DNA of 64,000 bases from Escherichia phage Ecwhy_1. The stretch lies in sequence record MH791411.1. One strand, written 5' to 3'. Position numbers and translations under genes: made by a program. The notes beneath the pieces were generated by a model that saw only the letters and a list, made by a program, of their open reading frames with translations, had not been told where the DNA came from and ran no database searches. Positions 1 through 64,000 of this stretch are shown here, in pieces (within the stretch, counting starts at the first letter, position 1; each line of letters starts with the position of its first letter).

Positions 1-63
1 TTAACGCTGAAGTTTAAAAATGCCTTGACTTTTTTATGATTCAGTACTAAATCCTTTTACGCA

Positions 64-273
64 TTAATCCTTCGTTACGCTTACGATTATCTGTGTATCC
101 CCATAGTCCTGCCATACTTCCACGCCAGCCGTCGCCTTGGTTAGTCGTGCTGTCATCTGCTTAATGGTCTTAGGCTTTAGTGGAACCTGTTGCAGTACTG
201 TACGCATAGCACTATCGACGTTATCATGTACGCCTGCAATAGTGCCTAGAACGCTATATACTGTATAGATCAT
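64..273 (-). CDS. hypothetical small protein (69 aa)
   Basis: ORF; SD CAGGAG upstream of ATG. Confidence 0.55.
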   Translation of the reverse strand: MIYTVYSVLGTIAGVHDNVDSAMRTVLQQVPLKPKTIKQMTARLTKATAGVEVWQDYGDTQIIVSVTKD

Positions 274-341
274 GTGTATGTACTCCTGATATAGTTAAGG
301 CCGCTAGAGAGCGGCCTATGATGTTTGATGATGTGTAACGC

Positions 342-743
342 TTACAGTCCTAAGATAGTGCGTGCTTCGTTACGTTCCGTACACAGCTGCATGATGTGAG
401 CAAGTAAGTCCTTGCTAATGTATCCGGTGTTCATAGCTTCACGAATAGATACATCATAAGCACCGAACCCAGTGCGAACGATACGCACATCATTCAGGTT
501 AGTATTATAGATACCGCCGAGATCAACGGCTTCGAATACTACATCAACAGAATATTCATTGTTGCCATCGTGGAAGTTTTCCAGTGCAATAGTATTGGAA
601 ACCGCCCAACGTTTGCAGTTTCCAATGATGCGGCACTGTTCCGGTTGGATAGTGCCATTACTTACAGCGTACTCCAGTGCATCTTTACCAAAAGTCCGAG
701 CCAGTACTAAAACGTCAGCGAAGGAAGTGATTGAGAAGGTCAT
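342..743 (-). CDS. hypothetical protein (133 aa)
   Basis: Track ORF 342-806 trimmed to internal ATG preceded by SD AAGGAG; sigma70-like promoter + 5'UTR hairpin upstream. Confidence 0.6.
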   Translation of the reverse strand: MTFSITSFADVLVLARTFGKDALEYAVSNGTIQPEQCRIIGNCKRWAVSNTIALENFHDGNNEYSVDVVFEAVDLGGIYNTNLNDVRIVRTGFGAYDVSIREAMNTGYISKDLLAHIMQLCTERNEARTILGL

Positions 744-828
744 GATAAAACTCCTTAATTTAGGAGGGAGAACCATTTCCCCCTCTCTATGTAAAACATT
801 ATACATGAATCTAAGTACTATGCAAGTA

Positions 829-1164
829 CTATTTCATTTTAATACCTGGATTCAGGTAGCGGTGAGATCCATATTCTGGATCGGTTTCGGTCCAGTACTG
901 TAAATCTATAGTACCTTTAGCGTTAATCTTATCTACCAGCTTATTCATCTTAGCGTATACTACATCAGCATCGATGCGTTTAAAGCCAGTGGCTTTAGTG
1001 AAGTAGTAGTGATTTGCTTCACTATCATTCAGGATGTACCGAGAACCGTCAGCCGTTTGTGCGACAATGAATGAGAATGATACTTTACGATCAAGGCCGT
1101 CGCAGTATACAGATGAATCATTGGTACGGATGAAAGCTTTAACGATAGCGATTGAAGTAGTCAT
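829..1164 (-). CDS. hypothetical protein (111 aa)
   Basis: ORF; SD AGGAG. Confidence 0.6.
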   Translation of the reverse strand: MTTSIAIVKAFIRTNDSSVYCDGLDRKVSFSFIVAQTADGSRYILNDSEANHYYFTKATGFKRIDADVVYAKMNKLVDKINAKGTIDLQYWTETDPEYGSHRYLNPGIKMK

Positions 1165-1314
1165 TTTGAATCTCCTAACTTTGTGGGCCGTCGCACCATT
1201 GCCGCCCTACGAGATACATTATTGCAGTACTGATATACTTTGTCAATACTTTTTTATTAATAGTTTTAGTTCCACCAGCAGATAGTTACTCACCGTTATT
1301 AACTATATATTTTG

Positions 1315-1400
1315 GATACACTTATGCACCCTGTGGGCTAGTTTTTGTCTATGCGTATATAATAGCAAAGGGACTGACCTGAGTCAATCCCTTTTTTTAT
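1315..1400 (-). repeat. repeated terminator-promoter-leader module (copies also at about 4065-4160, 7340-7430, 11345-11440)
   Basis: GATACACTTATGCACCCTGTGGGC..TATATAATAGCAAAGGGACTGACCGGAGTCAATCCCTTTTT. Confidence 0.55.
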
Positions 1401-1409
1401 TCTTTTTTG

Positions 1410-1610
1410 TTAGATGATTCTCCAATCATCAACGATCATGGTAAGATACCGAACCAGTGATTCGAGTGATTCGTGTTCTCGATAGTCTGACGCACCGCCA
1501 GCGGTACAAGTACAGCCGATTAAGCCGTTTTGCAATTCCTTAATCTGTACATCGATAAGGTTGGCTTTAGCTTCTTTCAGTACTTCAACCAGGGCGATAG
1601 CGATAGACAT
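1410..1610 (-). CDS. hypothetical small protein (66 aa)
   Basis: ORF; SD GGAG; promoter TTG..TATAAT + hairpin GGGGGAATAGTTCTCCC upstream. Confidence 0.55.
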   Translation of the reverse strand: MSIAIALVEVLKEAKANLIDVQIKELQNGLIGCTCTAGGASDYREHESLESLVRYLTMIVDDWRII

Positions 1611-1700
1611 AATGTTTTACTCCAAACTATTGGCGGGAGAACTATTCCCCCGCTCTATGTAAAACATTATACATTACTGGTTAGTACTGTCAAATAGTTT

Positions 1701-1958
1701 TTATGAAATATCTTCGATGTAGTCGGCCCATTTCATTTTTTCAGTACTGTCAATGGCTACCGGATTATTTGGATCAAACCATTCACCATTACCGCAATAC
1801 ATACCAACGGCTACGGTTTTATAGCCATCCTGGGCCGTACACCACGACATTGCACGATAGATATGGCCTTTAACTGGTTGTAGTACTGGTAACGTTTTAT
1901 GGTCTTCTACGTAGGCCATCGCTTGATGATTTACCCGATATTGTGTGAACTGTTCCAT
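1701..1958 (-). CDS. hypothetical protein (85 aa)
   Basis: ORF; SD AAGGGGAAAC; TTGACA-N17-TGTAAT upstream. Confidence 0.6.
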   Translation of the reverse strand: MEQFTQYRVNHQAMAYVEDHKTLPVLQPVKGHIYRAMSWCTAQDGYKTVAVGMYCGNGEWFDPNNPVAIDSTEKMKWADYIEDIS

Positions 1959-2034
1959 TATGTTTCCCCTTGTAGTTAGTAAAGTTATTACATCAGTACT
2001 ATCAAGCTATGTCAATAGTACTGAAATAAAACTT

Positions 2035-2259
2035 TTAGATTAGATTATTGAGGCCGTCAATGGTAGACTCACTTTCTTCTTTCTCCCATTGTCGGTAGTA
2101 CTTCCATGCTTCATGATAGGTGGCGATTAGTTCATCTTTTTGATCCTGGTTACATGCCAGTACTGAATCACGGTGAGCGGTGTTATAGATAGAATCGAAT
2201 GATTTCTTCTCTTCTGCCAGGTTAGCTACTTCCCGCATCAGTTCATCAAAGTTAGCCAT
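2035..2259 (-). CDS. hypothetical protein (74 aa)
   Basis: ORF; SD AAAGGAG; TTGCAT-N17-TATAAT then perfect hairpin GGGGGAGATATCCTCCCCC. Confidence 0.6.
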   Translation of the reverse strand: MANFDELMREVANLAEEKKSFDSIYNTAHRDSVLACNQDQKDELIATYHEAWKYYRQWEKEESESTIDGLNNLI

Positions 2260-2326
2260 TTTATTACTCCTTTTAGTGGGGGAGGATATCTCCCCCTATG
2301 CAAAACATTATACTTTGTTTTAGTTA

Positions 2327-2590
2327 TTATGCAAGTACTTTTTTCATATAAACATTAAATTCTACACCGCCGTAACCTTCCACGATGATATGTTTTGCGT
2401 TATCACGTTTGCACATAGTGAAACCATCGTTTACGTGTTTTGCATTTTCCAGGGCGACATCACCGATAGCGGCACATACGGCACTAATAACAGTATTCCG
2501 CAAAGTACTGGTATCATTGGCGGTCATAGTAGTTTGCAGTACTACGTTGTCGTATACGTGTGCATTGATAGTGATTTCGATAGTGTTCAT
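2327..2590 (-). CDS. hypothetical protein (87 aa)
   Basis: Track ORF trimmed to MNTIEI start with SD CAGGAG; promoter+hairpin upstream. Confidence 0.6.
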   Translation of the reverse strand: MNTIEITINAHVYDNVVLQTTMTANDTSTLRNTVISAVCAAIGDVALENAKHVNDGFTMCKRDNAKHIIVEGYGGVEFNVYMKKVLA

Positions 2591-2677
2591 GGTGTATCTC
2601 CTGGACTTGAGGGGAAACCATTTCCCCCTCTCGATATAAAACATTATACGTTAATCTAACTACAATGCAAGTACTTT

Positions 2678-2869
2678 TTAAATTTTATTTCCGATATAGT
2701 CCGGCATGTTCTTTTCAGTCATACGCTTTGCTAATGTCTGCATATGGCTTATAGCGTTCAAGGTGTCTTCCTCCAGGGATGAATCGAGATAATCAGGATC
2801 ATTCTTCACCTTGCAATGATTATGATAGCGTAGTACTGCCAGTACTTTTTTAACTTCTTCTACTGTCAT
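2678..2869 (-). CDS. hypothetical small protein (63 aa)
   Basis: ORF; 4-nt overlap with upstream gene suggests coupling. Confidence 0.5.
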   Translation of the reverse strand: MTVEEVKKVLAVLRYHNHCKVKNDPDYLDSSLEEDTLNAISHMQTLAKRMTEKNMPDYIGNKI

Positions 2870-3138
2870 AATAAGTACCCCACTTCGTTAGCTTTCAGGT
2901 TAGTATCAATCATCAGTGGATTTTTGTAGTTCACAAAACGAGTAGTTTTCTCGATAGCGAATCCCATATAATCCAGCTTACTAACAGTACATTCATTCTT
3001 AAAAACTTCTTTCGCTGCATCGATGGCTGATTGCATGGATAACCGACCATCTAAATTAATGTTTCCAAATGATCCACCAGCAGAAGTAGGATTACCGTTC
3101 ATATCTTTAATGATCATAGTAGCGGAGTAGCTGGACAT
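2866..3138 (-). CDS. hypothetical protein (90 aa)
   Basis: ORF; SD AAAGGAAAC; TTGACA-N17-TATAAT + hairpin GGGGAGAACTATTCTCCCC upstream. Confidence 0.6.
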   Translation of the reverse strand: MSSYSATMIIKDMNGNPTSAGGSFGNINLDGRLSMQSAIDAAKEVFKNECTVSKLDYMGFAIEKTTRFVNYKNPLMIDTNLKANEVGYLL

Positions 3139-3163
3139 AATTTTGTTTCCTTTTATTGGTGTG

Positions 3164-3182
3164 GGGAGAACTATTCTCCCCT
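3164..3182 (-). promoter_or_regulatory. 5'UTR hairpin GGGGAGAA-CTA-TTCTCCCC (example of recurring G-rich leader hairpins)
   Basis: Perfect 8-bp inverted repeat between -10 and SD; no T-run after it on the transcribed strand. Confidence 0.55.
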
Positions 3183-3193
3183 TGATGTAAACT

Positions 3194-3222
3194 ATTATAC
3201 AGTACTAAAATACTTTGTCAAA
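3194..3222 (-). promoter_or_regulatory. sigma70-like promoter TTGACA-N17-TATAAT (example of about 40 similar units)
   Basis: Reverse strand reads TTGACAAAGTATTTTAGTACTGTATAAT; AGTACT in spacer. Confidence 0.6.
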
Positions 3223-3227
3223 TACTT

Positions 3228-3635
3228 TTATTCGCCCATATAGATTAGATTATCATCGCCTACATAGGGATCGCAAACGTTGATTTCTTCACAGTACTTC
3301 GTGAATACATCGCCATAGTGACCTAAACCACGATCCCAAAAACCAGTTCCGTGACCTTCGCGGGTAAGGAACAGATCATGACCAGCTTGCTCATAACCGT
3401 AATCAATAAACATACCGCGAACTACTTCCAGATCATTACCGTGTTTCTCAATGAAGCGAGAACATGCAATCACCGCCGCTTGACGTGCTTCATCAGATAA
3501 CTCATAATCTTCCAGGTAATCGCCGTTATCATTATGTACAGTACTGAATTGCATAGCTTCAATGTAAGCTACAACCATTGCAGCATGATTTTTATCGTTA
3601 GTGATGTTCCGAGCGAGATTAGTAGTAGTAGACAT
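3228..3635 (-). CDS. hypothetical protein (135 aa)
   Basis: ORF; SD AAGGAATAAAATC; promoter+hairpin upstream. Confidence 0.6.
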   Translation of the reverse strand: MSTTTNLARNITNDKNHAAMVVAYIEAMQFSTVHNDNGDYLEDYELSDEARQAAVIACSRFIEKHGNDLEVVRGMFIDYGYEQAGHDLFLTREGHGTGFWDRGLGHYGDVFTKYCEEINVCDPYVGDDNLIYMGE

Positions 3636-3718
3636 GATTTTATTCCTTATTGTATTGGGGAGAACTATTCTCCCCTTGATGTAAACTATTATACAGTACT
3701 GATATACTTTGTCAATAC

Positions 3719-3940
3719 TTAATTACGTTTAAAATGATATGTGCCTTTATCATCCTGTACGCCCCATACTGATTTACCATCAACACCAGTGAAGCCGGAT
3801 TGTAATTCAATATGGAAACCATTATTATCAACTACAAAAACTTTTTTATTTTCATCCCGATAACATTGATATTCTGAATCAACATTAAAGGCCGCATCAT
3901 TCAGACGATTGGAAGCGTAAATGCAAGTCATTGTAGTCAT
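3719..3940 (-). CDS. hypothetical protein (73 aa)
   Basis: Track ORF trimmed to MTTMTC start; promoter+hairpin upstream. Confidence 0.55.
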   Translation of the reverse strand: MTTMTCIYASNRLNDAAFNVDSEYQCYRDENKKVFVVDNNGFHIELQSGFTGVDGKSVWGVQDDKGTYHFKRN

Positions 3941-4164
3941 GATTTTATTCCTTAATATACCAGGGAGAACCATTCCCCCTCTCGATATAAAACATTATAC
4001 TTGATTCTAAGTACAATGCAAGTACTTTTTTAAAAATAGTTTTCAGTACTGAATACTTATATAATAGATACACTTCCGCACCCTATGGGTCAGTGAGTTA
4101 TCTCTCAATGGATATATAATAGCAAAGGGACTGACCGGAGTCAATCCCTTTTTTTAATCTTTTT

Positions 4165-4749
4165 TTATCGTGTTACCTTACTTGCTGCCACATCACGCTT
4201 TTTATAGTACTGATTCCAGATATTGCTGGTTAAACCGTAATCAAGTACTTTAATAAGTCCATTACGATCCTGGCCGATATTCTGTTTTCTGATATCTCTT
4301 ATCGTTAGTGTTGATAATGTATCATCAACGTGTTGTAGTGCATCAGCAAAGCGGTGCTGGCGTTCGATTGCATTACGTTTAATATTGTACTTTAATTCAT
4401 TGCACGCGTTTACGTGCTTCACACTGCCTTTGCTTGCAGTACTCAACCGATCCATAACGATAAACATATTATCAGGATCGCATAAATGCATATGCACCTT
4501 TGCAAAGTACTGTTTCAATTGAGGGCGGTCATAGTCTAAAAAATTCCATACCTTACATTCAGTTTCATTTTGTTCTACACCCGCATCACAATTCGCGACC
4601 TTAATCACTAACCGATCATTTAAAGCGAAAACTATACGGGAAGAACCAGCACCGATGATCTCCAGGCCAGCTAACCGACAAGCTGAAAGGATCTCTTTGT
4701 TGGTTTCCATTTCTGACAGTGTACGGATGAATTTAGTATAATTACGCAT
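4165..4749 (-). CDS. protein kinase-like protein (194 aa)
   Basis: Trimmed to MRNYTKF start with SD AAGGAG; motifs IGAGSSRIV (Gly loop), VIKV (Lys), DIRKQN (catalytic-loop-like), DYG (DFG-like). Confidence 0.5.
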   Translation of the reverse strand: MRNYTKFIRTLSEMETNKEILSACRLAGLEIIGAGSSRIVFALNDRLVIKVANCDAGVEQNETECKVWNFLDYDRPQLKQYFAKVHMHLCDPDNMFIVMDRLSTASKGSVKHVNACNELKYNIKRNAIERQHRFADALQHVDDTLSTLTIRDIRKQNIGQDRNGLIKVLDYGLTSNIWNQYYKKRDVAASKVTR

Positions 4750-4780
4750 TGCATGTTCTCCTTGAGTTAATGAAACTATA

Positions 4781-5023
4781 TTACAGTACTTTACTATCAA
4801 TGGCAACTACTTTTTTAACATTAACGGCGTGGATCACTTCCTTCGTGTTTTTAGTACTGAATACTTTCGCCGCTCCTTGTTCGACCGTGATACGATAGCG
4901 ACCATTAACATCAACCATATTAATAAAGTCCGGCGTGCTGAATGGTGTTGTTTTACATTTGAGTACTGTTAACAGTTCCACCAGCGATGTAGTTTCTTTG
5001 ATACGTTTTTCTAAAGTAATCAT
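4781..5023 (-). CDS. hypothetical protein (80 aa)
   Basis: Trimmed to MITLEK start; TTGACA-N17-TACTAT and SD GGGGGAAAC upstream. Confidence 0.55.
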   Translation of the reverse strand: MITLEKRIKETTSLVELLTVLKCKTTPFSTPDFINMVDVNGRYRITVEQGAAKVFSTKNTKEVIHAVNVKKVVAIDSKVL

Positions 5024-5080
5024 TTTGTTTCCCCCGTGTTGGTATGTACATATAGTACTAAAACATTTGAGTACTGTCAA

Positions 5081-5299
5081 TTAGATAATATTATATTTCT
5101 TAAAATAAAATGCGTCCTGTGTTGGTTGATACTCGATACCGTTACCGTTATTGACTTCAACTAATAAACCTTTGTCAATTAGTTTTTTAATAGTACGATA
5201 CCCTTGTTGAAAATTGGTAAAATGTGAATCATTACGAAAGGTATAACCGTGCTTAACTGCTTCATCAATAGTTTTCTTTTCGATTTTAGATAATTTCAT
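5081..5299 (-). CDS. hypothetical protein (72 aa)
   Basis: Trimmed to MKLSKI start; promoter/leader near-identical to that of 4781-5023. Confidence 0.55.
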   Translation of the reverse strand: MKLSKIEKKTIDEAVKHGYTFRNDSHFTNFQQGYRTIKKLIDKGLLVEVNNGNGIEYQPTQDAFYFKKYNII

Positions 5300-5352
5300 T
5301 TTGTTTCTCCCGTGTTGGTATGTGTACATAGTACTAAAACAATTGAGTACTG

Positions 5353-5607
5353 TCAACGTGATATTAGTTTTATTTTCTTATTGTATTGTTGATGCTCATA
5401 AAGGTTTATCTTTCCTGTGTTCTCGATTACTATCCTGTTGTTAGTGTCCACGTCGATTACACGCAGTTTCCCGTTGCTTAACTTCCTAGGTAATAGGTTA
5501 CCATTAATAAACTCATTAGCAAGCTGTACGGCCTTTGTGATGATTCTCTGAGGTGCTTTATAGTGTACCCGTAAGATGTTATCTTTATATAGTTGAACCT
5601 TAATCAT
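5353..5607 (-). CDS. hypothetical protein (84 aa)
   Basis: ORF; SD AGGA; follows an intrinsic terminator. Confidence 0.55.
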   Translation of the reverse strand: MIKVQLYKDNILRVHYKAPQRIITKAVQLANEFINGNLLPRKLSNGKLRVIDVDTNNRIVIENTGKINLYEHQQYNKKIKLISR

Positions 5608-5620
5608 TTTGTTTGTCCTA

Positions 5621-5647
5621 TAAAAAAGGCGGGAACTGATCCCGCCG
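5621..5647 (-). terminator. intrinsic terminator
   Basis: Hairpin GGCGGGATCAGTTCCCGCC + TTTTTTAT on - strand. Confidence 0.6.
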
Positions 5648-5668
5648 TGTTGTTAGTACTGCAAGTTA

Positions 5669-6064
5669 TTAGATAACCTGGCGGCGTTTACTGTATACTG
5701 TTACACGATTACCCTTACGATCATGTCGGATCTCTTTCTGGTTGCGAATCAGTTCACTTGGACGCTTAAGGTTTGCCAGGTGATCCGCGTGAGTCCATGC
5801 GGTGTGGTTTACCTGTACTTTGATATCAGAATCAGCGATAAACTCATCTTGTGCGTCAAGTATTGCCGCCAGCATATCCGCTCGTTTTAGTTCTGCTGCT
5901 GTCAGTACTGGCTCAGGTGAATTCACAATATCAGAGATTTCTTTGAACTGTACGGCCCAGCGTTGACCTTTCGTTGCATCTTTGCCCATGTCTTTAAATG
6001 CTGCTCCTTCCTCGCGTGCAACAATACGGGCAGCTTCACGGGTAGCGTAGAATTTAGTAATCAT
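5669..6064 (-). CDS. hypothetical protein (131 aa), paralog of 19079-19345
   Basis: ORF; shared motifs KFYATREAARIVAR..FKDMG and DRKGNRVTVY; TTGACA-N17-TATAAT upstream. Confidence 0.6.
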   Translation of the reverse strand: MITKFYATREAARIVAREEGAAFKDMGKDATKGQRWAVQFKEISDIVNSPEPVLTAAELKRADMLAAILDAQDEFIADSDIKVQVNHTAWTHADHLANLKRPSELIRNQKEIRHDRKGNRVTVYSKRRQVI

Positions 6065-6159
6065 GGTATACATCCTATTAGTTGAGTTAGTACTACAAGT
6101 TAGAGTCTATTATAAAGTACTATCTGGGCAATGTCAAATAGTACTTTAAATGGATTCTA

Positions 6160-6483
6160 TTACATGTCTTTCTTACGTTTTACATCGTGGTAGCGAACTG
6201 TTATTTCTTTGTTGATCTCTTCCTCGATGCGATGAATAACTTTTTCTTTCGGGTTGAAACCTATAACGGTTTCTTTAATGATCTCCAAGCCCGTGTATTC
6301 GCCTTGTGTACCGTAACCGTATGTAAAGGTTTCGTGTCCCAGGTCTTCCCAGCGGTCGCCAATTAACGCAGACACGTAGCAAGAGTGGTAAGTATTGCCG
6401 TGTGAATCAGTCCACCGATTAACGTTAATGTCAAAGGAGGTTACAATTTTCAATTCTACTTTCTGGGCAAGGATCATAGCCAT
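6160..6483 (-). CDS. hypothetical protein (107 aa), paralog of 13003-13326
   Basis: ORF; shared motif RWTDSHGNTYHSC..FTYGY; promoter+hairpin upstream. Confidence 0.6.
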   Translation of the reverse strand: MAMILAQKVELKIVTSFDINVNRWTDSHGNTYHSCYVSALIGDRWEDLGHETFTYGYGTQGEYTGLEIIKETVIGFNPKEKVIHRIEEEINKEITVRYHDVKRKKDM

Positions 6484-58005: not shown

Positions 58006-58019
58006 TAATTAAACCCCAC

Positions 58020-58052
58020 ATAAAGTAAAAGGGTTGGAATAATACCAACCCT
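58020..58052 (-). terminator. intrinsic terminator
   Basis: Hairpin GGGTTGG-TATTATTCC-AACCC + TTTTACTTT on - strand. Confidence 0.5.
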
Positions 58053-58059
58053 ATATCTT

Positions 58060-58296
58060 TTATTTTTTAATAGATTCATAAAGCAGAAACAACCAAATAA
58101 ACATTGATGAACAAACTACTACTGGGATTAATGTAAATTCAGTAAAGAATAAAAGTATTCCATAAGTTAGTATGCAACATAAGTTTACGTACATAATTGC
58201 TTCTGCATTTTTATTTTTCATTTTATATGCAATGAATGTTGGTGACCACATTACCAAAAATGCAAACAACGCACATATGATGATTATAGTTTCCAT
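58060..58296 (-). CDS. small membrane protein (78 aa)
   Basis: Hydrophobic helices; SD GGAGGTG. Confidence 0.55.
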   Translation of the reverse strand: METIIIICALFAFLVMWSPTFIAYKMKNKNAEAIMYVNLCCILTYGILLFFTEFTLIPVVVCSSMFIWLFLLYESIKK

Positions 58297-58366
58297 ATTA
58301 CACCTCCGTAAAATAATGTTCTGTACTGCTATTATTTACAGAGAATATCTGAAAAATTGATCTAGA

Positions 58367-58591
58367 TCAATTTTTAGTCACTTTACAATTTGAATCTTTT
58401 TTGTACTGAACAATCACATTGTTCTTAAGGAAGATGATGGTCCCATAGGAACCTTGGGCTGCAACTTCAACAATATGGTTCTTATATGTTTCAGTATATC
58501 CTTCCATCTCGTTGATACACACTACATGATACTTTGGTTTAGCACATACAACAGTACTCAAGAATAGCAGTACTAGTACTAGATATTTCAT
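58367..58591 (-). CDS. secreted protein (74 aa), predicted signal peptide
   Basis: N-terminus MKYLVLVLLFLSTVVCA; SD AAGGTAATAA. Confidence 0.55.
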   Translation of the reverse strand: MKYLVLVLLFLSTVVCAKPKYHVVCINEMEGYTETYKNHIVEVAAQGSYGTIIFLKNNVIVQYKKDSNCKVTKN

Positions 58592-58641
58592 TTTATTACC
58601 TTATAAACAAGAACAGGAATCCTTTTACGGATTCCTATAAT

Positions 58642-58935
58642 TTAGTCCTTTAATGTACCATTGTGTAAACGATTATACACATCATTGCGACGCAACTCAA
58701 CAATATCTTCAGCGTACTTCATTGTAAACGCCCATGCTTTTGGATGCACATTAAGCTTCATACGAATGCGATTCTTCATCAATTCACCGCTTAGGCGAAC
58801 AAACTCATGAACACCACGACTTCCGTACTCTGAAATCAAATCATTGATGTACATGTTGCGAAGGGTTTCGTCTGTACATTCTTTAACCATTTCTACGTCT
58901 GCCACGATGCTTGCATTTACTGAAGTACTGATCAT
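58642..58935 (-). CDS. hypothetical protein (97 aa)
   Basis: ORF; SD AAGGTAAC. Confidence 0.55.
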   Translation of the reverse strand: MISTSVNASIVADVEMVKECTDETLRNMYINDLISEYGSRGVHEFVRLSGELMKNRIRMKLNVHPKAWAFTMKYAEDIVELRRNDVYNRLHNGTLKD

Positions 58936-58946
58936 TTTAAGTTACC

Positions 58947-59213
58947 TTATTTGAATTGGACTGTAATTTTATCACCTTCAACTACGAACTTACAGTCGTA
59001 GCGACGGGCCATATCCATATACATATGCTCAGAATACCACGGAACATCAATAACTGGATGCTCTGCGTATTGTAGCACTTCACGGTCACCAACAGTAGTG
59101 ATGACGAAAGGAATGTTCATCTCTCGCAAAAACAACTCGGCACCTGGTGAACGATTGACAAACTCAGTGTCGTTACGCAAAGTAAAACCATTGTATTGTA
59201 ATTTAAGCTTCAT
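58947..59213 (-). CDS. hypothetical protein (88 aa)
   Basis: ORF; SD AGAGGATAATC. Confidence 0.55.
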   Translation of the reverse strand: MKLKLQYNGFTLRNDTEFVNRSPGAELFLREMNIPFVITTVGDREVLQYAEHPVIDVPWYSEHMYMDMARRYDCKFVVEGDKITVQFK

Positions 59214-59227
59214 GATTATCCTCTAAG

Positions 59228-59572
59228 TTAATACCATTCTTTTAAACCATCAAGTTCGGCTATGTGAGTAATTATAACACAGATAACACTCAGGTCAAGC
59301 ATTATTTGCTCATAATTTAATTTTATTCTATCATCACTGTATGCTCTAAAAACAACATCAAAGTCAAAGTAGTTATCGTTTTCATCATTCATTGGAATGA
59401 TTCTATATCTACGTCTACCATCATCATTGAATACAGTCAAACATTGTTTGAATTTCTTCATTAACTGTGTAGTCAATGCATTGTAATATGCAACATCATA
59501 TTGTGTACAACGTGGGTCATTGGGTAGATAAAACGATACAAATTTTTTTAATTCTATTTGAGTCTTATCCAT
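59228..59572 (-). CDS. hypothetical protein (about 114 aa)
   Basis: Trimmed to MDKTQI start with SD GAGG. Confidence 0.5.
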   Translation of the reverse strand: MDKTQIELKKFVSFYLPNDPRCTQYDVAYYNALTTQLMKKFKQCLTVFNDDGRRRYRIIPMNDENDNYFDFDVVFRAYSDDRIKLNYEQIMLDLSVICVIITHIAELDGLKEWY

Positions 59573-60005
59573 ATACAGCCTCATGTATTACTCTTTTACT
59601 TTGGCGGTACTCATCCTTTGCTTCTCTCACTGACATGATACGAACCAGATTGGCACTACCACAATAGTACTGAACCTGACTACGACCAATGTCAACATGA
59701 TTATCAGGAACTTCATATACTGATACAGCAAACCCTGCACGATGTAATTTACCCAAGTCCATAGTAAAGAACTTAAACAAATCATTCAAACTCTGACAGC
59801 CAAATGCCCAGCCACGTTTGATTGAATAGATTCCATCTTCAGTTGGTTCTGGTTGGAATTGCGAAGGCGTGGTCATGCACAAACGGTCAAATCCATTTTT
59901 AGTACTGTATCGTGAAGAGTACCGTGCGAACGGCCCTACTGTTTTTGCTGGATCTAAGTTAGGTTCAATATAACTGAATTTAAGTTCAAAACGATATACG
60001 TACAT
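59565..60005 (-). CDS. hypothetical protein (146 aa)
   Basis: ORF; SD GGGGATTTTAAT; terminator-promoter hairpin upstream. Confidence 0.6.
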   Translation of the reverse strand: MYVYRFELKFSYIEPNLDPAKTVGPFARYSSRYSTKNGFDRLCMTTPSQFQPEPTEDGIYSIKRGWAFGCQSLNDLFKFFTMDLGKLHRAGFAVSVYEVPDNHVDIGRSQVQYYCGSANLVRIMSVREAKDEYRQSKRVIHEAVYG

Positions 60006-60060
60006 AATTAAAATCCCCAGTAGTTGATGAAATAATTATAACAAAAAAGGTTGACCGAAG

Positions 60061-60252
60061 TCAACCTTTATTTTGAAGTTCTTGAACTAATTGTCGTACT
60101 TCTTTGATGTTATGACACTGCTTTACAGTGAAGTAATCATACTTACGACCATAGGTTCTTGGATCATCACCTTCCATATACTGCTGCACATCAAAGATTT
60201 GTAAGTAGGGATGCTGCATAACACGAATGTTACCACATTGATAAATCAACAT
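60061..60252 (-). CDS. hypothetical small protein (about 63 aa)
   Basis: Track ORF begins at a GTG; trimmed to ATG with SD GAGGA. Confidence 0.45.
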   Translation of the reverse strand: MLIYQCGNIRVMQHPYLQIFDVQQYMEGDDPRTYGRKYDYFTVKQCHNIKEVRQLVQELQNKG

Positions 60253-60256
60253 ATGT

Positions 60257-60607
60257 TTAGTCCTCATATTTACACAAGCCACCGAATGTTGCCTGTTTTG
60301 CTGCCTTACGCATCATCACAAGTTTAACATACTGTTCGCCATTACTTTCTTCATATACATCAACTTGAAGAAATGCAAGCATATTGGGATCAGTATCGTT
60401 CGAGTACTGCGTAAAACTAATGTCACCTACAGTATGTTCTTTAACAAAATTATACACTTCACCATCGATATAAACGATAGTATGGTCATCGCTATCACCT
60501 TGGTAAATGTGTTTAATATCACCTTCAGTACAGACTAGTCCAGGTAATGGTTCTGCATAAGACATACCACATATAATCATACAAACAAAAAACAAAATTA
60601 CTTTCAT
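60257..60607 (-). CDS. secreted protein (116 aa), predicted signal peptide
   Basis: N-terminus MKVILFFVCMIICGMSYA; SD AAAGGAAAC. Confidence 0.6.
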   Translation of the reverse strand: MKVILFFVCMIICGMSYAEPLPGLVCTEGDIKHIYQGDSDDHTIVYIDGEVYNFVKEHTVGDISFTQYSNDTDPNMLAFLQVDVYEESNGEQYVKLVMMRKAAKQATFGGLCKYED

Positions 60608-60987
60608 GATTTGTTTCCTTTGGATAAAATGGATTTCTTCACTTTGTACTGCTTGTAGTTATTATACCAAACATCGATTACATAAATCAAGTACCAAAGT
60701 GATGGATATAATGATAGACCAATAAAAACTGAAAAAATACTTGTATTAATAAAACCAATACAGTGCAGTGTAAATGCAACGATTAGAATACCAATCGTAA
60801 TCATACTAGCTGAATATGGTACGCTATCAGATGCGAACCATGAATCAACCTTACTAATTAAAGTATACTTCCCAGTACTAACAGCATAAACAATTGCTAC
60901 TATACCAAATAATGCCATTGAAATAGTTATTACTGAGTTAATAAGAATCGGAGTAATTAATACATAAAGCATTACATCGTTTATCAT
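60604..60987 (-). CDS. small polytopic membrane protein (127 aa)
   Basis: Hydrophobic helices; SD AAGGTATAAC. Confidence 0.6.
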   Translation of the reverse strand: MINDVMLYVLITPILINSVITISMALFGIVAIVYAVSTGKYTLISKVDSWFASDSVPYSASMITIGILIVAFTLHCIGFINTSIFSVFIGLSLYPSLWYLIYVIDVWYNNYKQYKVKKSILSKGNKS

Positions 60988-60997
60988 TTGTTATACC

Positions 60998-61363
60998 TTA
61001 AAGTTCACAATGAATATTCAATTTATCAATATCCTGATCGCGTTTGTTCGACGAATCTTGATAAATGACTATGTAAATATCCCCATCCTTTGTCTTGGGG
61101 TCCACTATCAATATTACATTTGCTATTATACCAGCATCTGATTTATATGTCGATACCTTTTTATTCCCAATCAAACTCTCGGCCCTGAAACGGTAAACCT
61201 CATTATCTACGACAATATTGTTTCCATTTTGTGGGTCATTAGAAAGTACATGCCATGTTCCATCGTTTCCCATACAATCAAGGTAAGCAGGTACGGCTGT
61301 ACTGAACCTTGAATAAAGCATGAATACTACAAACACCATTATCATTCTTATATATTTTTTCAT
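60998..61363 (-). CDS. secreted protein (about 121 aa), predicted signal peptide
   Basis: Trimmed to MKKYIRMIMVFVVF start with SD AGAGG. Confidence 0.55.
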   Translation of the reverse strand: MKKYIRMIMVFVVFMLYSRFSTAVPAYLDCMGNDGTWHVLSNDPQNGNNIVVDNEVYRFRAESLIGNKKVSTYKSDAGIIANVILIVDPKTKDGDIYIVIYQDSSNKRDQDIDKLNIHCEL

Positions 61364-61441
61364 TATAACCTCTAACGAGCAATACTTCTGCACATATTAT
61401 TTGTACAGAAGTATTTAATACTATTAGAGACTTTTTGAACG

Positions 61442-61768
61442 TTACTTCTTACTAGTTAGTTTATCTTTCAAGATATCAAACCAAATGGAAACTTTACCAG
61501 CAAACAATGCATTAGTAAACCACACAATACCAACAATGTTCTCAACTAAATTCATAATTGAAACAAATGGTCCAATTGGTAATACAAAACTTACTAACCA
61601 TGACAGTACTGAAATAAGTACTACAACGAAGAAGATTCGTACAATGGGTGAGTCTAACATAAACAACTCACGAAACTCATCACGCTCGGTTTCGTCTTTA
61701 ATGAAGAATTCGAAAACCATAACCCATAACAGAATTAGAGCAGGAATTGAAATTAGAACTGATAACAT
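61442..61768 (-). CDS. small polytopic membrane protein (108 aa)
   Basis: Hydrophobic helices; SD GAGGATATAA. Confidence 0.6.
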   Translation of the reverse strand: MLSVLISIPALILLWVMVFEFFIKDETERDEFRELFMLDSPIVRIFFVVVLISVLSWLVSFVLPIGPFVSIMNLVENIVGIVWFTNALFAGKVSIWFDILKDKLTSKK

Positions 61769-61826
61769 GTTTTATATCCTCAAGTTTAAGTGTTAAGTTT
61801 CAGACTACAAGAACCATTATACAGTA

Positions 61827-62069
61827 CTACAAACGTTTGTCAACAGGTTTTTCTTCAATAAGCATAAGATAACTGAAGACGAATAGTAATACAGATGCCA
61901 TATCAATAACCGTAAAGCTCACGGGAATGATAATAGACACTAGAATGAGTGCCACGTTTAGCAAGAATACAGTAGTGATATCCACCAGCTTTCGTTTAGT
62001 GGCTACTGCTACTAGTGTAGGGTAGAACATAAACAATAATGCAACTACAAAACTCAATACTAGATACAT
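61827..62069 (-). CDS. small membrane protein (80 aa)
   Basis: Hydrophobic helices; SD AAGGTGAAAA. Confidence 0.55.
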   Translation of the reverse strand: MYLVLSFVVALLFMFYPTLVAVATKRKLVDITTVFLLNVALILVSIIIPVSFTVIDMASVLLFVFSYLMLIEEKPVDKRL

Positions 62070-62722
62070 TTCTTTTTCACCTTAAGAAAATTATAACATA
62101 AAACAACCTCAACATCTGGCTCATCATACAAGTACTCAAAGCGTTCTTTACTACGCTTAGTACCGATGTACTCACCATTCTTATGCCAACGCCACCCACC
62201 ACTCTCTGGTTGGTCAGACTTCAGTACTGGATGATAGCACATGACAATTTCTTCTGGACCTTCAATAAGGTTCTTGTACTTCGTCAAAATCTGTTCAAGC
62301 GTATCTGCTACACCATAAGACGAGTGCATAAGATAAGACTCAGGACGTGGACGACCACTTGGTAGAATGTCATCAGTACTATTAAAGATAGCACGGAAGT
62401 CTTCTGACGTGTATAAACTTCCATCTTCATGGATCATTGGATACTCATCTACTACATCATAATCAGTGAAGTGTTCAATCGCATGTCCTGGTCTGTAACC
62501 TGCGAGGATACCTGTATGTTTCGTCTGTACAATAGTCATAACAGATGTACTATTGTTTACATTAGGATCATGAATTTCAGCCCAAAAAGGATGATGAGGA
62601 TCAAATTTAGCATTAACTAAAGTACAATCACCAATGTAGTCGAAATTAGTTTCTTTAAAGTTCAAAGAAACACCACGCAATGCCCAATCAGGAGAAGTGA
62701 TGAAATTAAGATTAACTAACAT
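62060..62722 (-). CDS. hypothetical protein (220 aa)
   Basis: ORF; SD GAGGATAC; TTGACA..GATATAAT upstream. Confidence 0.65.
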   Translation of the reverse strand: MLVNLNFITSPDWALRGVSLNFKETNFDYIGDCTLVNAKFDPHHPFWAEIHDPNVNNSTSVMTIVQTKHTGILAGYRPGHAIEHFTDYDVVDEYPMIHEDGSLYTSEDFRAIFNSTDDILPSGRPRPESYLMHSSYGVADTLEQILTKYKNLIEGPEEIVMCYHPVLKSDQPESGGWRWHKNGEYIGTKRSKERFEYLYDEPDVEVVLCYNFLKVKKKCI

Positions 62723-62756
62723 AGTATCCTCAGTTGCGGTTGTTTTGATACAGTTA

Positions 62757-62969
62757 TTATATCAAAGACGTGTCAATTTGTACAACATTTATTGTAACTA
62801 TTTCGTACATAAAATCAATTGCATTGAACTCTGCATACCACTCTACAATCTCACAAGCAGCATCAACTTGGTTTTTCGCATTAACACGTCTGGCATAGGT
62901 GCTGCTCATTTTGAATCTACCATATTCATAGACATTGTAGACACCATGACACCACCACATCTTAGTCAT
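62757..62969 (-). CDS. hypothetical small protein (about 70 aa)
   Basis: Trimmed to MTKMWW start overlapping stop of upstream gene. Confidence 0.4.
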   Translation of the reverse strand: MTKMWWCHGVYNVYEYGRFKMSSTYARRVNAKNQVDAACEIVEWYAEFNAIDFMYEIVTINVVQIDTSLI

Positions 62970-63180
62970 TAATGCTAGGCCATACAGTGAATTGTAAGTC
63001 TTGGTATTCAAATTTACCAATATCATTCTTCTTACGGAATGATTCTTCAACCTGAATTTCTGCGTCGTACTGACCATCGGCCTTTACTACGTACTTAAAA
63101 TATTCTACATGTGAAAAACGATACCCTTCTCCGTCTTGCTTGGATACTTGTACTGACCCTTCAACTAGATATAAATTCAT
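62962..63180 (-). CDS. hypothetical protein (72 aa)
   Basis: ORF; SD GGAGAATGAC. Confidence 0.55.
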   Translation of the reverse strand: MNLYLVEGSVQVSKQDGEGYRFSHVEYFKYVVKADGQYDAEIQVEESFRKKNDIGKFEYQDLQFTVWPSIND

Positions 63181-63183
63181 TTG

Positions 63184-63405
63184 TCATTCTCCATCATATT
63201 CAGTGAGTATTACACTATGTACTGTTTCAATATAGCGTTGTGTTTTTGGTGTGTTGTACTTAGTTACTTCATCAAACAATTTAAATAGTGCATGTGTTGG
63301 ACTTAATGCACGAACAAATACATCAATCTTCTGTACTTCTTTCTTATAACCACGTACATTATTAAACTCAGATACATGCTCATACACAATGTAGTAACGA
63401 TTCAT
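63184..63405 (-). CDS. hypothetical protein (73 aa)
   Basis: ORF; ATGA overlap with upstream gene. Confidence 0.55.
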   Translation of the reverse strand: MNRYYIVYEHVSEFNNVRGYKKEVQKIDVFVRALSPTHALFKLFDEVTKYNTPKTQRYIETVHSVILTEYDGE

Positions 63406-63917
63406 ATATTAAGTAGTTCCATAAATTCATCGATCAAGGAAGTTCTAATGCACATAACAAATTCAAAATCAACATCGATAGTATCGAGTAGTTTGAACAA
63501 CTTTGGTACATTTGGATCATTCAACTGGAAGTTATGAATCAAGCTCTGTTGAAACACACTTTCTTCAGTACTGTAATCAATAACAAAATATTCAGCTACA
63601 CCTGGAGGTGAATAAACATCATATAATATCTGACGTTTATTGTGTGTTTCTGAACCAGGACAATATATAAGTTCTATTTCATACGAACCTGCCGAGGATC
63701 TATCATAAAACACAATCTCAGTACTAGTTATTTCACTACCATCACTTCTTTCATAAAAACATACATCGGCATATCGTTTACCATTGGGCTTCAAGATCTC
63801 ATGAGTTGTTTTACCATAACATTTATCAGTTTCAATGTGTACTTTGCCTTGATATTCAGAACGTCTTACATCATTTCCACGATTAAACAATATGTTCAAC
63901 AACTCATTAATATCCAT
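63402..63917 (-). CDS. hypothetical protein (171 aa)
   Basis: ORF; SD GAGGCGAAATA. Confidence 0.6.
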   Translation of the reverse strand: MDINELLNILFNRGNDVRRSEYQGKVHIETDKCYGKTTHEILKPNGKRYADVCFYERSDGSEITSTEIVFYDRSSAGSYEIELIYCPGSETHNKRQILYDVYSPPGVAEYFVIDYSTEESVFQQSLIHNFQLNDPNVPKLFKLLDTIDVDFEFVMCIRTSLIDEFMELLNI

Positions 63918-63918
63918 T

Positions 63919-64000
63919 ATTTCGCCTCGATAACCTTAAGGTTAACAAAATCACCTTTTACTTTCATACATTTGAATTCAGTGCGTGTTTCATCACCACT
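63919..64000 (-). CDS. 3' end of a gene running off the window (partial)
   Basis: Open frame to window edge, stop overlapping downstream ATG (TAATG). Confidence 0.3.

What the first reader, a model, noticed from the sequence alone, without database searches (positions are those of the whole stretch)
1..64000. Strong over-representation of the palindromic hexamer AGTACT, often as CAGTACTG
AGTACT appears in nearly every intergenic region: immediately upstream of -35 elements (AGTACTTGCA), inside promoter spacers (TTAGTACTGTATAAT), in terminator stems (GCCAGTACT..GTACTGGC) and in repeats. By eye there are well over a hundred copies (not counted exactly), against roughly 15 expected for a hexamer at this base composition. 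It may be a binding site for a phage regulator or a signature of a DNA modification or anti-restriction strategy.
Basis: seen in the sequence. Interest (0 to 1): 0.55.

Follow-up and report, generated by a model that had tools for sequence, protein, structure and literature searches.

The report
Iterated AGTACT palindrome in jumbo phage
The six-letter palindrome AGTACT is the commonest hexamer in this giant E. coli phage and its relatives, about 13 times commoner than chance. Selection keeps it there in genes, promoters and terminators, so it looks like a phage-specific DNA tag whose reader is still unknown.

Summary
AGTACT occurs 286 times in the 64-kb window, against 22 expected from base or dinucleotide content and 49±6 under a second-order Markov model. 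It is the most frequent hexamer.

The window comes from an Asteriusvirus, a 121Q/PBECO4-type jumbo coliphage about 98% identical to fEgEco12. Positions 1 to about 21,800 are its direct terminal repeat.

- **Location:** 63% of copies lie inside ORFs, in all three frames.
- **Codon choice:** synonymous codon shuffling of 233 long genes gives 145±12 copies against 528 observed.
- **Conservation:** sites change half as fast as their flanks across six relatives (p=1e-9).
- **Clade range:** the enrichment is shared by four genera (Asterius-, Alcyoneus-, Mimas- and Eneladusvirus). It always comes with a total absence of GCGC. It is missing from PA5oct, Atu_ph07, rV5 and E. coli.
- **Early promoters:** copies sit at two fixed positions, fused to the −35 element and abutting the −10 element. 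These positions are conserved between genera.
- **Terminators:** the RCC1-paralog terminators use the motif in their stems.

No ScaI-like enzyme, extra methyltransferase or SlmA-type site explains it.

Best reading (moderate confidence): a selected, genome-wide recognition tag for an unidentified clade-specific phage protein, which also acts as an operator at early promoters. The accessible literature does not describe it.

The parts
1..64000 (.). Whole window: 286 copies of AGTACT (4.5 per kb). 180 lie fully inside ORFs in all three frames; 106 are intergenic or overlap ORF ends.
1..21800 (-). Direct-terminal-repeat part of the genome: small early genes on the minus strand, each with its own sigma-70-like promoter. 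It holds 140 AGTACT copies (about 6.4 per kb). The right boundary is approximate, at 21.6–21.9 kb.
   Evidence: fEgEco12 g01-56 = g615-670; DTR 20,993 bp
16555..16587 (-). Early promoter with two phased copies: AGTAC fused to −35 TTGCAA (site 16582–16587) and AGTACT-G abutting −10 TATAAT (site 16562–16567), 20 bp apart. Four other promoters have both positions occupied. 17038–17070, 15770–15802 and 11867–11899 have the same AGTAC|TTGCAA layout. 10252–10286 has AGTACT-A before −35 TTGACA and 22-bp spacing.
2643..2675 (-). Early promoter of the 'AGTACTTGCA' type: a single copy fused to the −35 element. It is one of 20 such sites in 1–21,900.
3194..3221 (-). Early promoter of the 'TTGACA…AGTACTGTATAAT' type: a single copy abutting the −10 element. 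It is one of 13 such sites.
20240..20340 (-). A 53-bp direct repeat, two copies, each carrying CAGTACTGAATAATAGTACTCC. The sites are at 20256, 20269, 20309 and 20322. It lies in a long non-coding stretch close to the inner end of the terminal repeat.
29213..29232 (+). Intrinsic-terminator-like hairpin GCCAGTACT-TG-AGTACTGGC followed by a T-run, behind an RCC1-like paralog. The stem is built from two AGTACT copies. Further copies are at 32854–32872, 34102–34127, 35319–35346 and 42141–42167. Variants with one decayed copy are at 28038–28056, 36588–36606, 37829–37847, 39051–39069 and 40258–40276.
26881..42136 (+). Array of about 12 RCC1-like paralogous genes. It holds 34 internal AGTACT copies (2.4 per kb of coding DNA, about 7 times expectation), plus the copies in terminators and promoters between the genes.
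42173..64000 (-). Block of tightly packed minus-strand genes. 51 of its 56 copies lie inside ORFs (2.5 per kb coding) and its intergenic regions are mostly free of the motif. This shows the enrichment does not depend on promoters or terminators.

Best explanation
AGTACT is a selected, genome-wide DNA tag of the enterobacterial RaK2/121Q-like jumbo phages. I read it as a symmetric recognition site for a clade-specific, phage-encoded dimeric protein (binder or enzyme) that has not been identified.

**Shown**
- The word is kept at 2–3 copies per kb everywhere and 6–7 per kb in the terminal repeats.
- This is achieved through synonymous-codon choice, through use in promoters at fixed positions, and through use in terminator stems.
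- Individual sites evolve at about half the local rate.
- Density is conserved between genera, but position mostly is not.
- The host sample carries about 50–75 times fewer copies per kb.

**Inferred**
- The dense tag lets a phage factor tell phage DNA from host DNA. These phages have no recognisable hydroxymethylase or glucosyltransferase genes (RaK2) and no phage nucleus (Sharanji).
- This tag complements the complete lack of GCGC in the phage against about 7 per kb in the host sample.
- At early promoters the same factor binds two copies on one face of the helix. These copies are centred near −37 and −16, bracketing the −35 element and overlapping the region upstream of −10 that sigma-70 contacts.
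- It thereby controls early transcription, most likely shutting it off once the factor is made.
For: - **Enrichment:** 286 observed against 22–49 expected. Genome-wide in fEgEco12 the count is 1115 against 126, again the top hexamer.
- **Codon-level selection:** 528 observed against 145±12 after synonymous shuffling. 290 of 558 Ser-Thr dicodons are AGTACT, and the other two frames are also enriched 4–5 fold.
- **Purifying selection:** 3.9% per-base mismatch in sites against 7.6% in flanks over six relatives, p=1.2e-9, with gains and losses of the same order (36 lost, 27 gained).
- **Deep conservation of density:** 73 and 89 sites in 11 orthologue pairs of fEgEco12 and Serratia BF, with only 18 of 72 at the same codon.
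- **Clade distribution with outgroups lacking it**.
- **Palindromic core** with a symmetric flank preference and a consistent avoidance of G at −1 in all genera.
- **Fixed promoter positions:** −7 and −27/−28 relative to TATAAT in the window, GAP32 and CBB. 28 of 34 promoter-like sites in the terminal repeat are occupied.
- **Near-cognate words are mildly enriched**, not depleted, as expected from decaying selected sites.
- **Host contrast:** 3 AGTACT and 342 GCGC in 50 kb of E. coli K-12.
- **Background on the phages:** Sharanji forms no phage nucleus (PMC11895373). fEgEco12 DNA is cut normally by ten restriction enzymes (PMC13070987).
Against: - **No reader protein found:** Pfam found no helix-turn-helix, restriction-fold or extra methyltransferase family in 288 mid-size ORFs.
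- **Promoter positions may not be independent:** the promoters are paralogous copies, so shared positions may partly reflect common descent rather than independent constraint.
- **Unexplained deserts in fEgEco12:** an 8.6-kb stretch and a 5.8-kb stretch have no AGTACT at all. In and beyond them the asymmetric, strand-specific AGTACA is enriched (46 copies against 0 of its complement within 29.0–37.65 kb). A simple symmetric binder does not predict this.
- **Alternatives fit equally well:** a genome-wide tag is equally compatible with a modifying, nicking or priming enzyme.
- **Sampling limit:** the host contrast rests on one 50-kb E. coli sample.
Confidence: 0.4

Rival explanations
1. AGTACT is the target of a sequence-specific DNA modification, either methylation of A or C or something more exotic, made by a phage enzyme. 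The dense modified sites act as an epigenetic self-mark. They could protect against a phage nuclease or against ScaI-type host restriction, or time promoter activity through replication.
For: - The host sample, rV5, PA5oct and Atu_ph07 all under-represent AGTACT. If that reflects ScaI-type restriction pressure, which is my inference, a phage with about 1100 sites would need them shielded.
- The phage encodes two methyltransferases.
- RaK2 DNA is reported to be methylated and refractory to many enzymes (PMC3622015).
- The cyanobacterial HIP1 palindrome, the closest known analogue, is methylated by orphan methyltransferases (papers listed, plus my own knowledge).
Against: - The C5 enzyme is Dnmt3-like, and RaK2 bisulfite data point to CpG.
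- The other enzyme belongs to the Dam family, PF05869.
- No N4/N6 methyltransferase or ScaI-type nuclease turned up in 288 ORFs.
- Only 5 of 28 single-base site differences are the C>T or G>A changes expected from methyl-cytosine deamination.
- Modification by itself does not explain why more sites would be better.
Confidence: 0.2
2. AGTAC(T) is read on one strand by the replication or recombination machinery. It could be a hexamer-specific primase start site, or the site of a nickase that seeds recombination-dependent replication or clamp loading. Such a site must occur every few hundred bases on both strands, which a palindrome guarantees.
For: - Density is fairly uniform across all gene classes and is conserved, while position is not.
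- fEgEco12 has a region where the half-palindrome AGTACA is enriched on one strand only, with a small opposite-polarity cluster next to it (9 TGTACT against 2 AGTACA in 20.9–26.6 kb). That pattern resembles a polar signal around an origin.
- Host DNA would be a poor substrate.
Against: - It does not explain the fixed promoter positions or the doubled density in the terminal repeats.
- To my knowledge, known primases read three to five bases and their sites are not strongly enriched.
- No nickase was identified.
Confidence: 0.12
3. The signal works in RNA. AGUACU would be a self-complementary building block for hairpins, or the site of a phage endoribonuclease or RNA-binding protein that times mRNA decay, analogous to T4 RegB cutting GGAG.
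For: - Terminator stems are made of paired copies.
- Density is highest in the early-gene arrays.
- The AGTACA enrichment in fEgEco12 is on the sense strand.
Against: - A palindromic hexamer is unlikely for an RNA motif a priori: only 64 of 4096 hexamers are palindromes.
- Copies upstream of −35 lie outside the transcript started at that promoter.
- The second fEgEco12 desert has the opposite polarity relative to its genes.
- Late structural genes are enriched too.
Confidence: 0.08
4. The enrichment is a neutral by-product of a biased mutation or repair process, such as very-short-patch repair or biased gene conversion, that converts near-cognate words into AGTACT.
For: - In E. coli, Vsr repair linked to Dcm is known to inflate CCWGG (my own knowledge).
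- Sites persist longer than their flanks, which biased repair would also produce.
Against: - No one-step neighbour reachable by a transition is depleted: AGTATT/AATACT is at 1.4 times expectation and AGTGCT/AGCACT at 1.3. Only AGGACT/AGTCCT, a transversion neighbour, is low at 0.49.
- A 13-fold excess is far beyond known repair effects.
- fEgEco12 contains 5.8-kb and 8.6-kb stretches with no site at all inside the same genome, although both also lack GCGC.
- The fixed promoter positions argue for function.
Confidence: 0.05
5. A host protein reads the sites. The obvious candidate is SlmA, the nucleoid-occlusion factor, whose consensus site GTGAGTACTCAC has AGTACT at its core. Binding would explain the filamentation of infected cells.
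For: - AGTACT forms positions 4–9 of the SlmA-binding sequence (PMC3020112).
- Sharanji-infected cells filament (PMC11895373).
- The trait is confined to phages of Enterobacterales.
Against: - There are zero matches to GTRAGYRCTYAC in the window and in all 375 kb of fEgEco12.
- Only 31 of 2230 half-flanks fit GTR, which I estimate at about half the chance level.
- SlmA needs a purine at −1. G there is the rarest base (6–9%) in every genus, and in the window, fEgEco12 and RaK2 purines together make up only about 30%.
- LexA boxes are also absent: one CTGT-N8-ACAG match per strand.
Confidence: 0.03

Closest known systems
HIP1, the highly iterated palindrome GCGATCGC of cyanobacteria
   Same: - It is a short exact palindrome, many-fold over-represented.
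- It is scattered through coding DNA in all frames and through non-coding DNA.
- It is conserved as a clade signature rather than at fixed positions.
- It is useful for spotting foreign DNA.
- Its function is unresolved.
   Different: - HIP1 is an octamer in cellular genomes and is methylated by identified orphan methyltransferases (papers listed, plus my own knowledge).
- Here the word is a hexamer in a virus and no cognate enzyme was found.
- It occupies fixed positions in promoters.
- It is paired with total avoidance of a second word, GCGC.
GATC as used by Dam, SeqA and MutH in E. coli
   Same: It is a palindromic word spread over the whole genome as a tag. Dimeric proteins read it, and extra copies cluster in regulatory regions and inside some promoters.
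   Different: GATC is a tetramer near its chance frequency, and its readers and methylase are known. AGTACT is 13 times over chance and its reader is unknown.
DNA uptake sequences (Neisseria DUS, Haemophilus USS), Chi and KOPS
   Same: These are short words kept at high density by selection, found inside genes as well as between them. Uptake sequences are often used as inverted pairs in terminator stems.
   Different: Those words are asymmetric and orientation-dependent, and they serve uptake, RecBCD control or FtsK translocation. AGTACT is symmetric. Only the local AGTACA variant in fEgEco12 is polar.
ScaI/Eco255I-type restriction-modification site (AGTACT)
   Same: The recognition sequence is identical.
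   Different: Restriction sites are avoided by phages and hosts, as seen in E. coli, rV5 and PA5oct. No ScaI-type nuclease or N4-cytosine methylase was detected in the phage.
SlmA-binding sequence GTGAGTACTCAC
   Same: It shares the AGTACT core and is read by a dimeric helix-turn-helix protein.
   Different: The flanks required by SlmA are absent and even disfavoured, and there are no full sites in 375 kb.
T4 self/non-self discrimination by hydroxymethylcytosine (Alc, EndoII/EndoIV)
   Same: This is a functional analogy only: a genome-wide property that lets phage proteins treat phage and host DNA differently.
   Different: T4 uses a modified base. Here the proposed mark is sequence content alone: AGTACT-rich and GCGC-free. 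The analogy is an inference and is not shown.

Membership tests
Highly iterated palindrome (HIP-type genomic tag) | An exact short palindrome at least 10-fold over composition-based expectation, and the top-ranked word of its length | tested here: met
   286 against 21.6 (13.2-fold), the most frequent hexamer. 1115 against 126 in fEgEco12.
Highly iterated palindrome (HIP-type genomic tag) | Dispersed in coding DNA in all frames and in non-coding DNA, without conserved flanks | tested here: met
   180 coding copies (frames 74/39/67) and 106 intergenic. Flank information is at most 0.36 bit at ±1 and about 0 beyond.
Highly iterated palindrome (HIP-type genomic tag) | Maintained by selection at the DNA level, independently of protein sequence and codon usage | tested here: met
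   528 against 145±12 after synonymous shuffling. Sites change at half the rate of their flanks, p=1.2e-9.
Highly iterated palindrome (HIP-type genomic tag) | A signature of a clade, absent from outgroups and from the host | tested here: met
   Present in RaK2, GAP32, CBB, Serratia BF and fEgEco12. Not present at a comparable level in PA5oct, Atu_ph07, ME3 (only 2.4-fold), rV5 or E. coli K-12.
Highly iterated palindrome (HIP-type genomic tag) | A cognate orphan methyltransferase acting on the palindrome, as for HIP1 | tested here: inconclusive
   Only a Dnmt3-like C5 methyltransferase (m5CpG reported in RaK2) and a Dam-family enzyme were found. No methylome data are available.
Type II restriction-modification target (ScaI type) | A cognate endonuclease and/or methyltransferase encoded nearby or elsewhere in the genome | tested here: not met
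   Pfam scans of 288 ORFs of 95–420 aa found no restriction-enzyme family and no N4/N6 methyltransferase besides Dam. ORFans could hide one.
Type II restriction-modification target (ScaI type) | The site is resistant to the cognate enzyme because it is modified | not testable with these tools
   ScaI was not among the ten enzymes used on fEgEco12 DNA (PMC13070987).
SlmA-binding sequence | 12-bp palindrome GT-R-AG-Y-R-CT-Y-AC, with G1, T2, A4 and G5 essential | tested here: not met
   0 matches in the window and in fEgEco12. GTR flanks occur at 31 of 2230 half-sites. Consensus taken from PMC3020112.
Operator of a phage transcription regulator | Palindromic site at fixed positions overlapping core promoter elements, often in phased pairs | tested here: met
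   28 of 34 promoter-like sites in the terminal repeat carry AGTACT at −27 and/or −7 relative to TATAAT. The offsets are the same or within 1–2 bp in GAP32 and CBB.
Operator of a phage transcription regulator | An identified cognate DNA-binding protein and an effect on transcription | not testable with these tools
   No candidate emerged from the Pfam scans. No transcriptome of these phages was found.
Dispersed repeat element (REP/MITE-like) | Conserved sequence extending well beyond the core, in copies related by descent | tested here: not met
   No conservation beyond ±1. The contexts are diverse.
Polar motif (Chi, KOPS, uptake sequence) | An asymmetric word with strand or orientation bias | tested here: not met
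   AGTACT is its own reverse complement. Only the fEgEco12-specific AGTACA variant is polar.

The most novel reading that the evidence does not exclude
The enterobacterial RaK2/121Q-like jumbo phages lack both a phage nucleus and any sign of base hypermodification. They may instead use a purely sequence-based self/non-self code.

- **The two marks:** AGTACT runs at 3–7 per kb in phage DNA against about 0.06 per kb in the host sample. GCGC is at zero in about 375 kb of phage DNA against about 7 per kb in the host sample.
- **Positive mark:** AGTACT would be read by a phage protein that directs transcription control, protection or replication to phage DNA.
- **Negative mark:** GCGC would be the target of a phage nuclease, or another lethal activity, that destroys host DNA.
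Probability: 0.2. Interest if true: 0.85.

Novelty: new variant of a known kind. Interest (0 to 1): 0.75.

Why it matters
About 1100 copies of one hexamer, kept by selection for as long as four phage genera have been diverging, imply an abundant sequence-specific reader.

- how a jumbo phage without a nucleus or hypermodified bases keeps its DNA apart from the host's;
- how its roughly 30 near-consensus early promoters in each terminal repeat are switched;
- why GCGC is forbidden.

In practical terms, the AGTACT-rich, GCGC-free signature is a simple marker for recognising members of this clade in metagenomes, and for spotting recently acquired DNA within them. It also gives a direct handle for experiments (ScaI digestion, oligonucleotide pull-downs).

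HIP-type palindromes have been an unsolved problem in cyanobacteria for decades. A phage version with a much smaller gene set could make the question tractable.

Tried and rejected
- **Composition, codon usage or protein sequence as the cause:** rejected by Markov simulations and by synonymous and codon-order shuffles.
- **A longer repeat element:** rejected, because flanks carry no information.
- **Inflation by paralogous promoters and terminators only:** rejected. 233 long, mostly unique genes hold 528 copies, and the 42–64 kb block has 51 of its 56 copies inside ORFs.
- **SlmA sites:** rejected.
- **LexA boxes:** rejected. The promoter string TACTGTATA is only half of a box.
- **Very-short-patch-type repair bias:** not supported. 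No transition neighbour is depleted.
- **The C5 methyltransferase as the cognate enzyme:** unlikely. It is Dnmt3-like, and RaK2 shows m5CpG.
- **A ScaI-like enzyme, other methyltransferase or helix-turn-helix protein:** a Pfam scan of 288 fEgEco12 ORFs through two pseudo-alignments, plus 10 window ORFs, found nothing.
- **Known RNA families and tRNAs in the window:** none.
- **Literature:** no paper in the searchable library mentions AGTACT, ScaI sites or an iterated palindrome in these phages.
- **'Campylobacter phage' hits to the terminal repeat:** these looked odd. The one such record seen in the later protein search (A110a, about 146 kb) groups with rV5-like coliphages. The DNA matches themselves were not examined.

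Full report
**Identity of the window.** Megablast places the window in the Asteriusvirus group of jumbo coliphages (121Q, PBECO4, G17). The best match is fEgEco12 (PP777464.1) at about 98% identity. In fEgEco12 genes g01–g56 are repeated as g615–g670. The published description gives 20,993-bp direct terminal repeats (PMC13070987). Window positions 1 to about 21,800 correspond to this repeat in reverse orientation. The rest of the window is the adjoining unique region. It contains an array of RCC1-like paralogs (26.9–42.1 kb) and a block of small minus-strand genes.

**The observation.** AGTACT occurs 286 times and CAGTACTG 68 times. The expectation is 21.6 from base composition. Simulation gives 22.0±4.5 under a first-order Markov model, 48.9±6.2 under second order and 112.8±9.6 under third order. 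AGTACT is the commonest hexamer in the window, and the next palindrome reaches only 2.9 times its expectation. The hexamer is the unit. Outside it, only C at −1 and G at +1 (about 48%) and a shortage of G at −1 (8–9%) stand out.

**Where the copies are.** With my own approximate gene calls, 180 copies lie fully within ORFs (frames 74/39/67) and 106 are intergenic or overlap an ORF end. Density is 11.7 per kb in intergenic DNA at 1–26.8 kb and 14.4 per kb at 26.8–42.2 kb. It is 2.4–4.9 per kb in coding DNA, against 0.34 per kb expected. In the terminal repeat 43 of 52 intergenic regions carry a copy. At 42–64 kb only 3 of 21 do, yet that block still has 51 copies inside genes.

**Promoters.** The intergenic copies have three recurrent contexts. 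The minus strand of the terminal repeat carries 34 near-consensus sigma-70-type promoter-like sites.
- In 20 of them AGTAC is fused to a TTGCA-type −35 element.
- In 13 of them AGTACT-G abuts TATAAT.
- In 5 both are present, 20–22 bp apart.
- Only 6 have neither.

The offsets relative to TATAAT are −27 and −7 in the window. They are −27 to −29 and −7 in the terminal-repeat regions of GAP32 and CBB, which belong to another genus.

**Terminators.** The terminators behind the RCC1-like paralogs have stems of the form GCCAGTACT..AGTACTGGC followed by a T-run.

**Selection, not composition.** In 233 ORFs of at least 150 codons in fEgEco12 (222 kb) there are 528 copies. Shuffling synonymous codons within each gene gives 145±12 and shuffling codon order gives 104±10. 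Of 558 Ser-Thr dicodons, 290 are AGTACT, against about 93 expected from codon usage. The other two frames are enriched 4–5 fold.

Against six aligned stretches from five relatives at 86–96% identity, 289 of 325 aligned sites are intact. The per-base mismatch is 3.9% within sites and 7.6% in flanks (odds ratio 0.50, p=1.2e-9). There are 36 losses and 27 gains. The stretches overlap in part, so the p-value is only indicative.

In 11 orthologue pairs between fEgEco12 and Serratia phage BF (37–73% amino-acid identity), site numbers are similar (73 and 89). Only 18 of 72 aligned sites sit at the same codon position. Density is thus conserved more than position.

One-step neighbours of the word are mildly enriched rather than depleted, except AGGACT/AGTCCT at 0.49. 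Single-base differences at sites show no excess of C>T changes.

**Distribution.** fEgEco12 as a whole has 1115 copies against 126 expected. That is roughly 1.3–4 per kb over nearly all of the unique region, including the giant structural genes, and 6–7 per kb in both terminal repeats.

| Genome sample | AGTACT observed | AGTACT expected | GCGC observed | GCGC expected |
|---|---|---|---|---|
| RaK2 | 119 | 17 | 0 | 37 |
| GAP32 | 253 | 17 | 0 | 53 |
| CBB | 266 | 17 | 0 | 52 |
| Serratia phage BF, structural region | 126 | 17 | 0 | 41 |
| fEgEco12, structural region | 104 | 17 | 0 | 58 |
| PA5oct | 1 | 17 | 48 | 37 |
| Atu_ph07 | 1 | 8 | 39 | 35 |
| Acinetobacter phage ME3 | 20 | 8.5 | 7 | 18 |
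| rV5 | 2 | 14.5 | 58 | 121 |
| E. coli K-12, 50 kb | 3 | 11.6 | 342 | 215 |

In every genome that has the AGTACT excess, GCGC is completely absent: 0 in the window and 0 against 382 expected in fEgEco12.

**Candidate readers.**
- fEgEco12 encodes a 286-aa C5 methyltransferase whose closest solved relatives are Dnmt3 catalytic domains, and a Dam-family (PF05869) enzyme.
- The RaK2 paper reports two methyltransferases, m5CpG by bisulfite, and a digestion pattern consistent with Dam and CpG methylation, all as data not shown (PMC3622015).
- AGTACT contains no CpG or GATC.
- Pfam scans of 288 ORFs of 95–420 aa, plus ten window ORFs, found no restriction-enzyme family, no further DNA methyltransferase and no helix-turn-helix family at E≤1e-4.
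- SlmA, whose consensus site GTGAGTACTCAC has AGTACT at its core (PMC3020112), was tempting because Sharanji-infected cells filament (PMC11895373). However, the phage has no full site and disfavours the required flanks.

**Interpretation.** Five things are shown.
- The enrichment is real.
- It is selected at the DNA level.
- It is old and clade-specific.
- It is used at fixed promoter positions.
- It is coupled with GCGC absence.

From the exact palindrome, the symmetric flank preference and the phased promoter pairs, I infer that a dimeric phage protein reads the word. From the 50–75-fold contrast with host DNA, I infer that it serves as a self-mark. I put this reading at about 0.4. The rivals are a modification target (0.2), a priming or nicking signal (0.12), an RNA signal (0.08), a repair by-product (0.05) and a host factor (0.03).

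**An unexplained complication outside the window.** fEgEco12 has two stretches without any AGTACT, at 20.9–26.6 kb and 29.0–37.6 kb. At 29.0–37.65 kb the asymmetric AGTACA occurs 46 times on the sense strand, in all frames, while its complement TGTACT occurs 0 times. The AGTACA excess continues to about 60 kb. The first stretch has a small excess of the opposite polarity. GAP32 and CBB show no such deserts. This hints at a strand-specific component that none of the explanations fully covers.

**Novelty.** Full-text searches for AGTACT, ScaI, iterated palindromes and promoter motifs in papers on RaK2, CBB, fEgEco12, Sharanji and related phages found no mention of this feature. The closest known phenomenon is the cyanobacterial HIP1 palindrome. 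I therefore rate it a new variant of a known kind.

Noticed in passing
window 1-64000; also L001-L008, L009, L010, L011, L018: GCGC is completely absent. It is 0 in the window (52–67 expected) and 0 in 375 kb of fEgEco12 (382 expected). It is also 0 in the 50-kb samples of RaK2, GAP32, CBB and Serratia BF. PA5oct, Atu_ph07, rV5 and E. coli do have it. Many 6-bp palindromes (GGTACC, CTGCAG, CTCGAG, CCATGG and others) are also at zero in the window.
   Followed up: partly
window minus strand at 1272, 3074, 4978, 7326, 8575, 9525, 10035, 14314, 21268: The terminal repeat holds nine Chi sequences (GCTGGTGG) on the minus strand, against about 0.1 expected by my estimate. Several lie in intergenic regions. 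By my reading they are oriented to be recognised by RecBCD entering from the nearby genome end. fEgEco12 has 10 such copies in each repeat.
   Followed up: partly
window minus strand, e.g. 14206, 13889, 12083, 11854, 11249, 10815, 8089, 3675, 3181, 2628, 783: Most early promoters in the terminal repeat are followed within about 10–15 nt by a conserved G-rich hairpin (GGGGAGAA…TTCTCCCC) that lies upstream of the ribosome-binding site. It has no T-run. It looks like a 5'-UTR stem-loop shared by the early transcripts.
   Followed up: no
window minus strand near 1165-1409, 3974-4164, 7118-7432, 11212-11433 (also 9578-9760, 18596-18760): A repeated non-coding element of about 100 nt contains GGGATTGACTCCGGTCAGTCCC…TATTATAT and, downstream, AGCCCAYAGGGTGC (six copies). 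It looks like a promoter inside a hairpin driving a short conserved transcript. There is no Rfam or tRNA match.
   Followed up: partly
L001 (fEgEco12) 20,900-26,600 and 29,000-37,650, extending to about 60,000: Two stretches carry no AGTACT at all. In the second, AGTACA is 15-fold enriched on the sense strand only (46 against 0 TGTACT), in all three frames. The first has a small excess of the opposite polarity (9 TGTACT against 2 AGTACA). GAP32 and CBB do not show this.
   Followed up: partly
window 26881-42136: About 12 tandem RCC1-like paralogs of 360–415 aa lie on the plus strand. Relatives annotate them as 'chromosome condensation regulator'. Nearly all are followed by an almost identical terminator, and several are preceded by the same TATAGTATAATGAATAAAGGAGG promoter and ribosome-binding-site cassette.
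   Followed up: no
window 1-20000: Thirteen records labelled 'Campylobacter phage' match the terminal repeat. One such record appeared in the later methyltransferase search: A110a, about 146 kb, which groups with rV5-like coliphages. The label may therefore not reflect the phage's true affinity. The C5 methyltransferase is about 50% identical to that of rV5-like phages.
   Followed up: partly
window 20128-22166: About 2 kb around the inner end of the terminal repeat has almost no ORFs. It contains the 53-bp direct repeat with four AGTACT copies and two facing Chi sequences (21268 and 21280).
   Followed up: no
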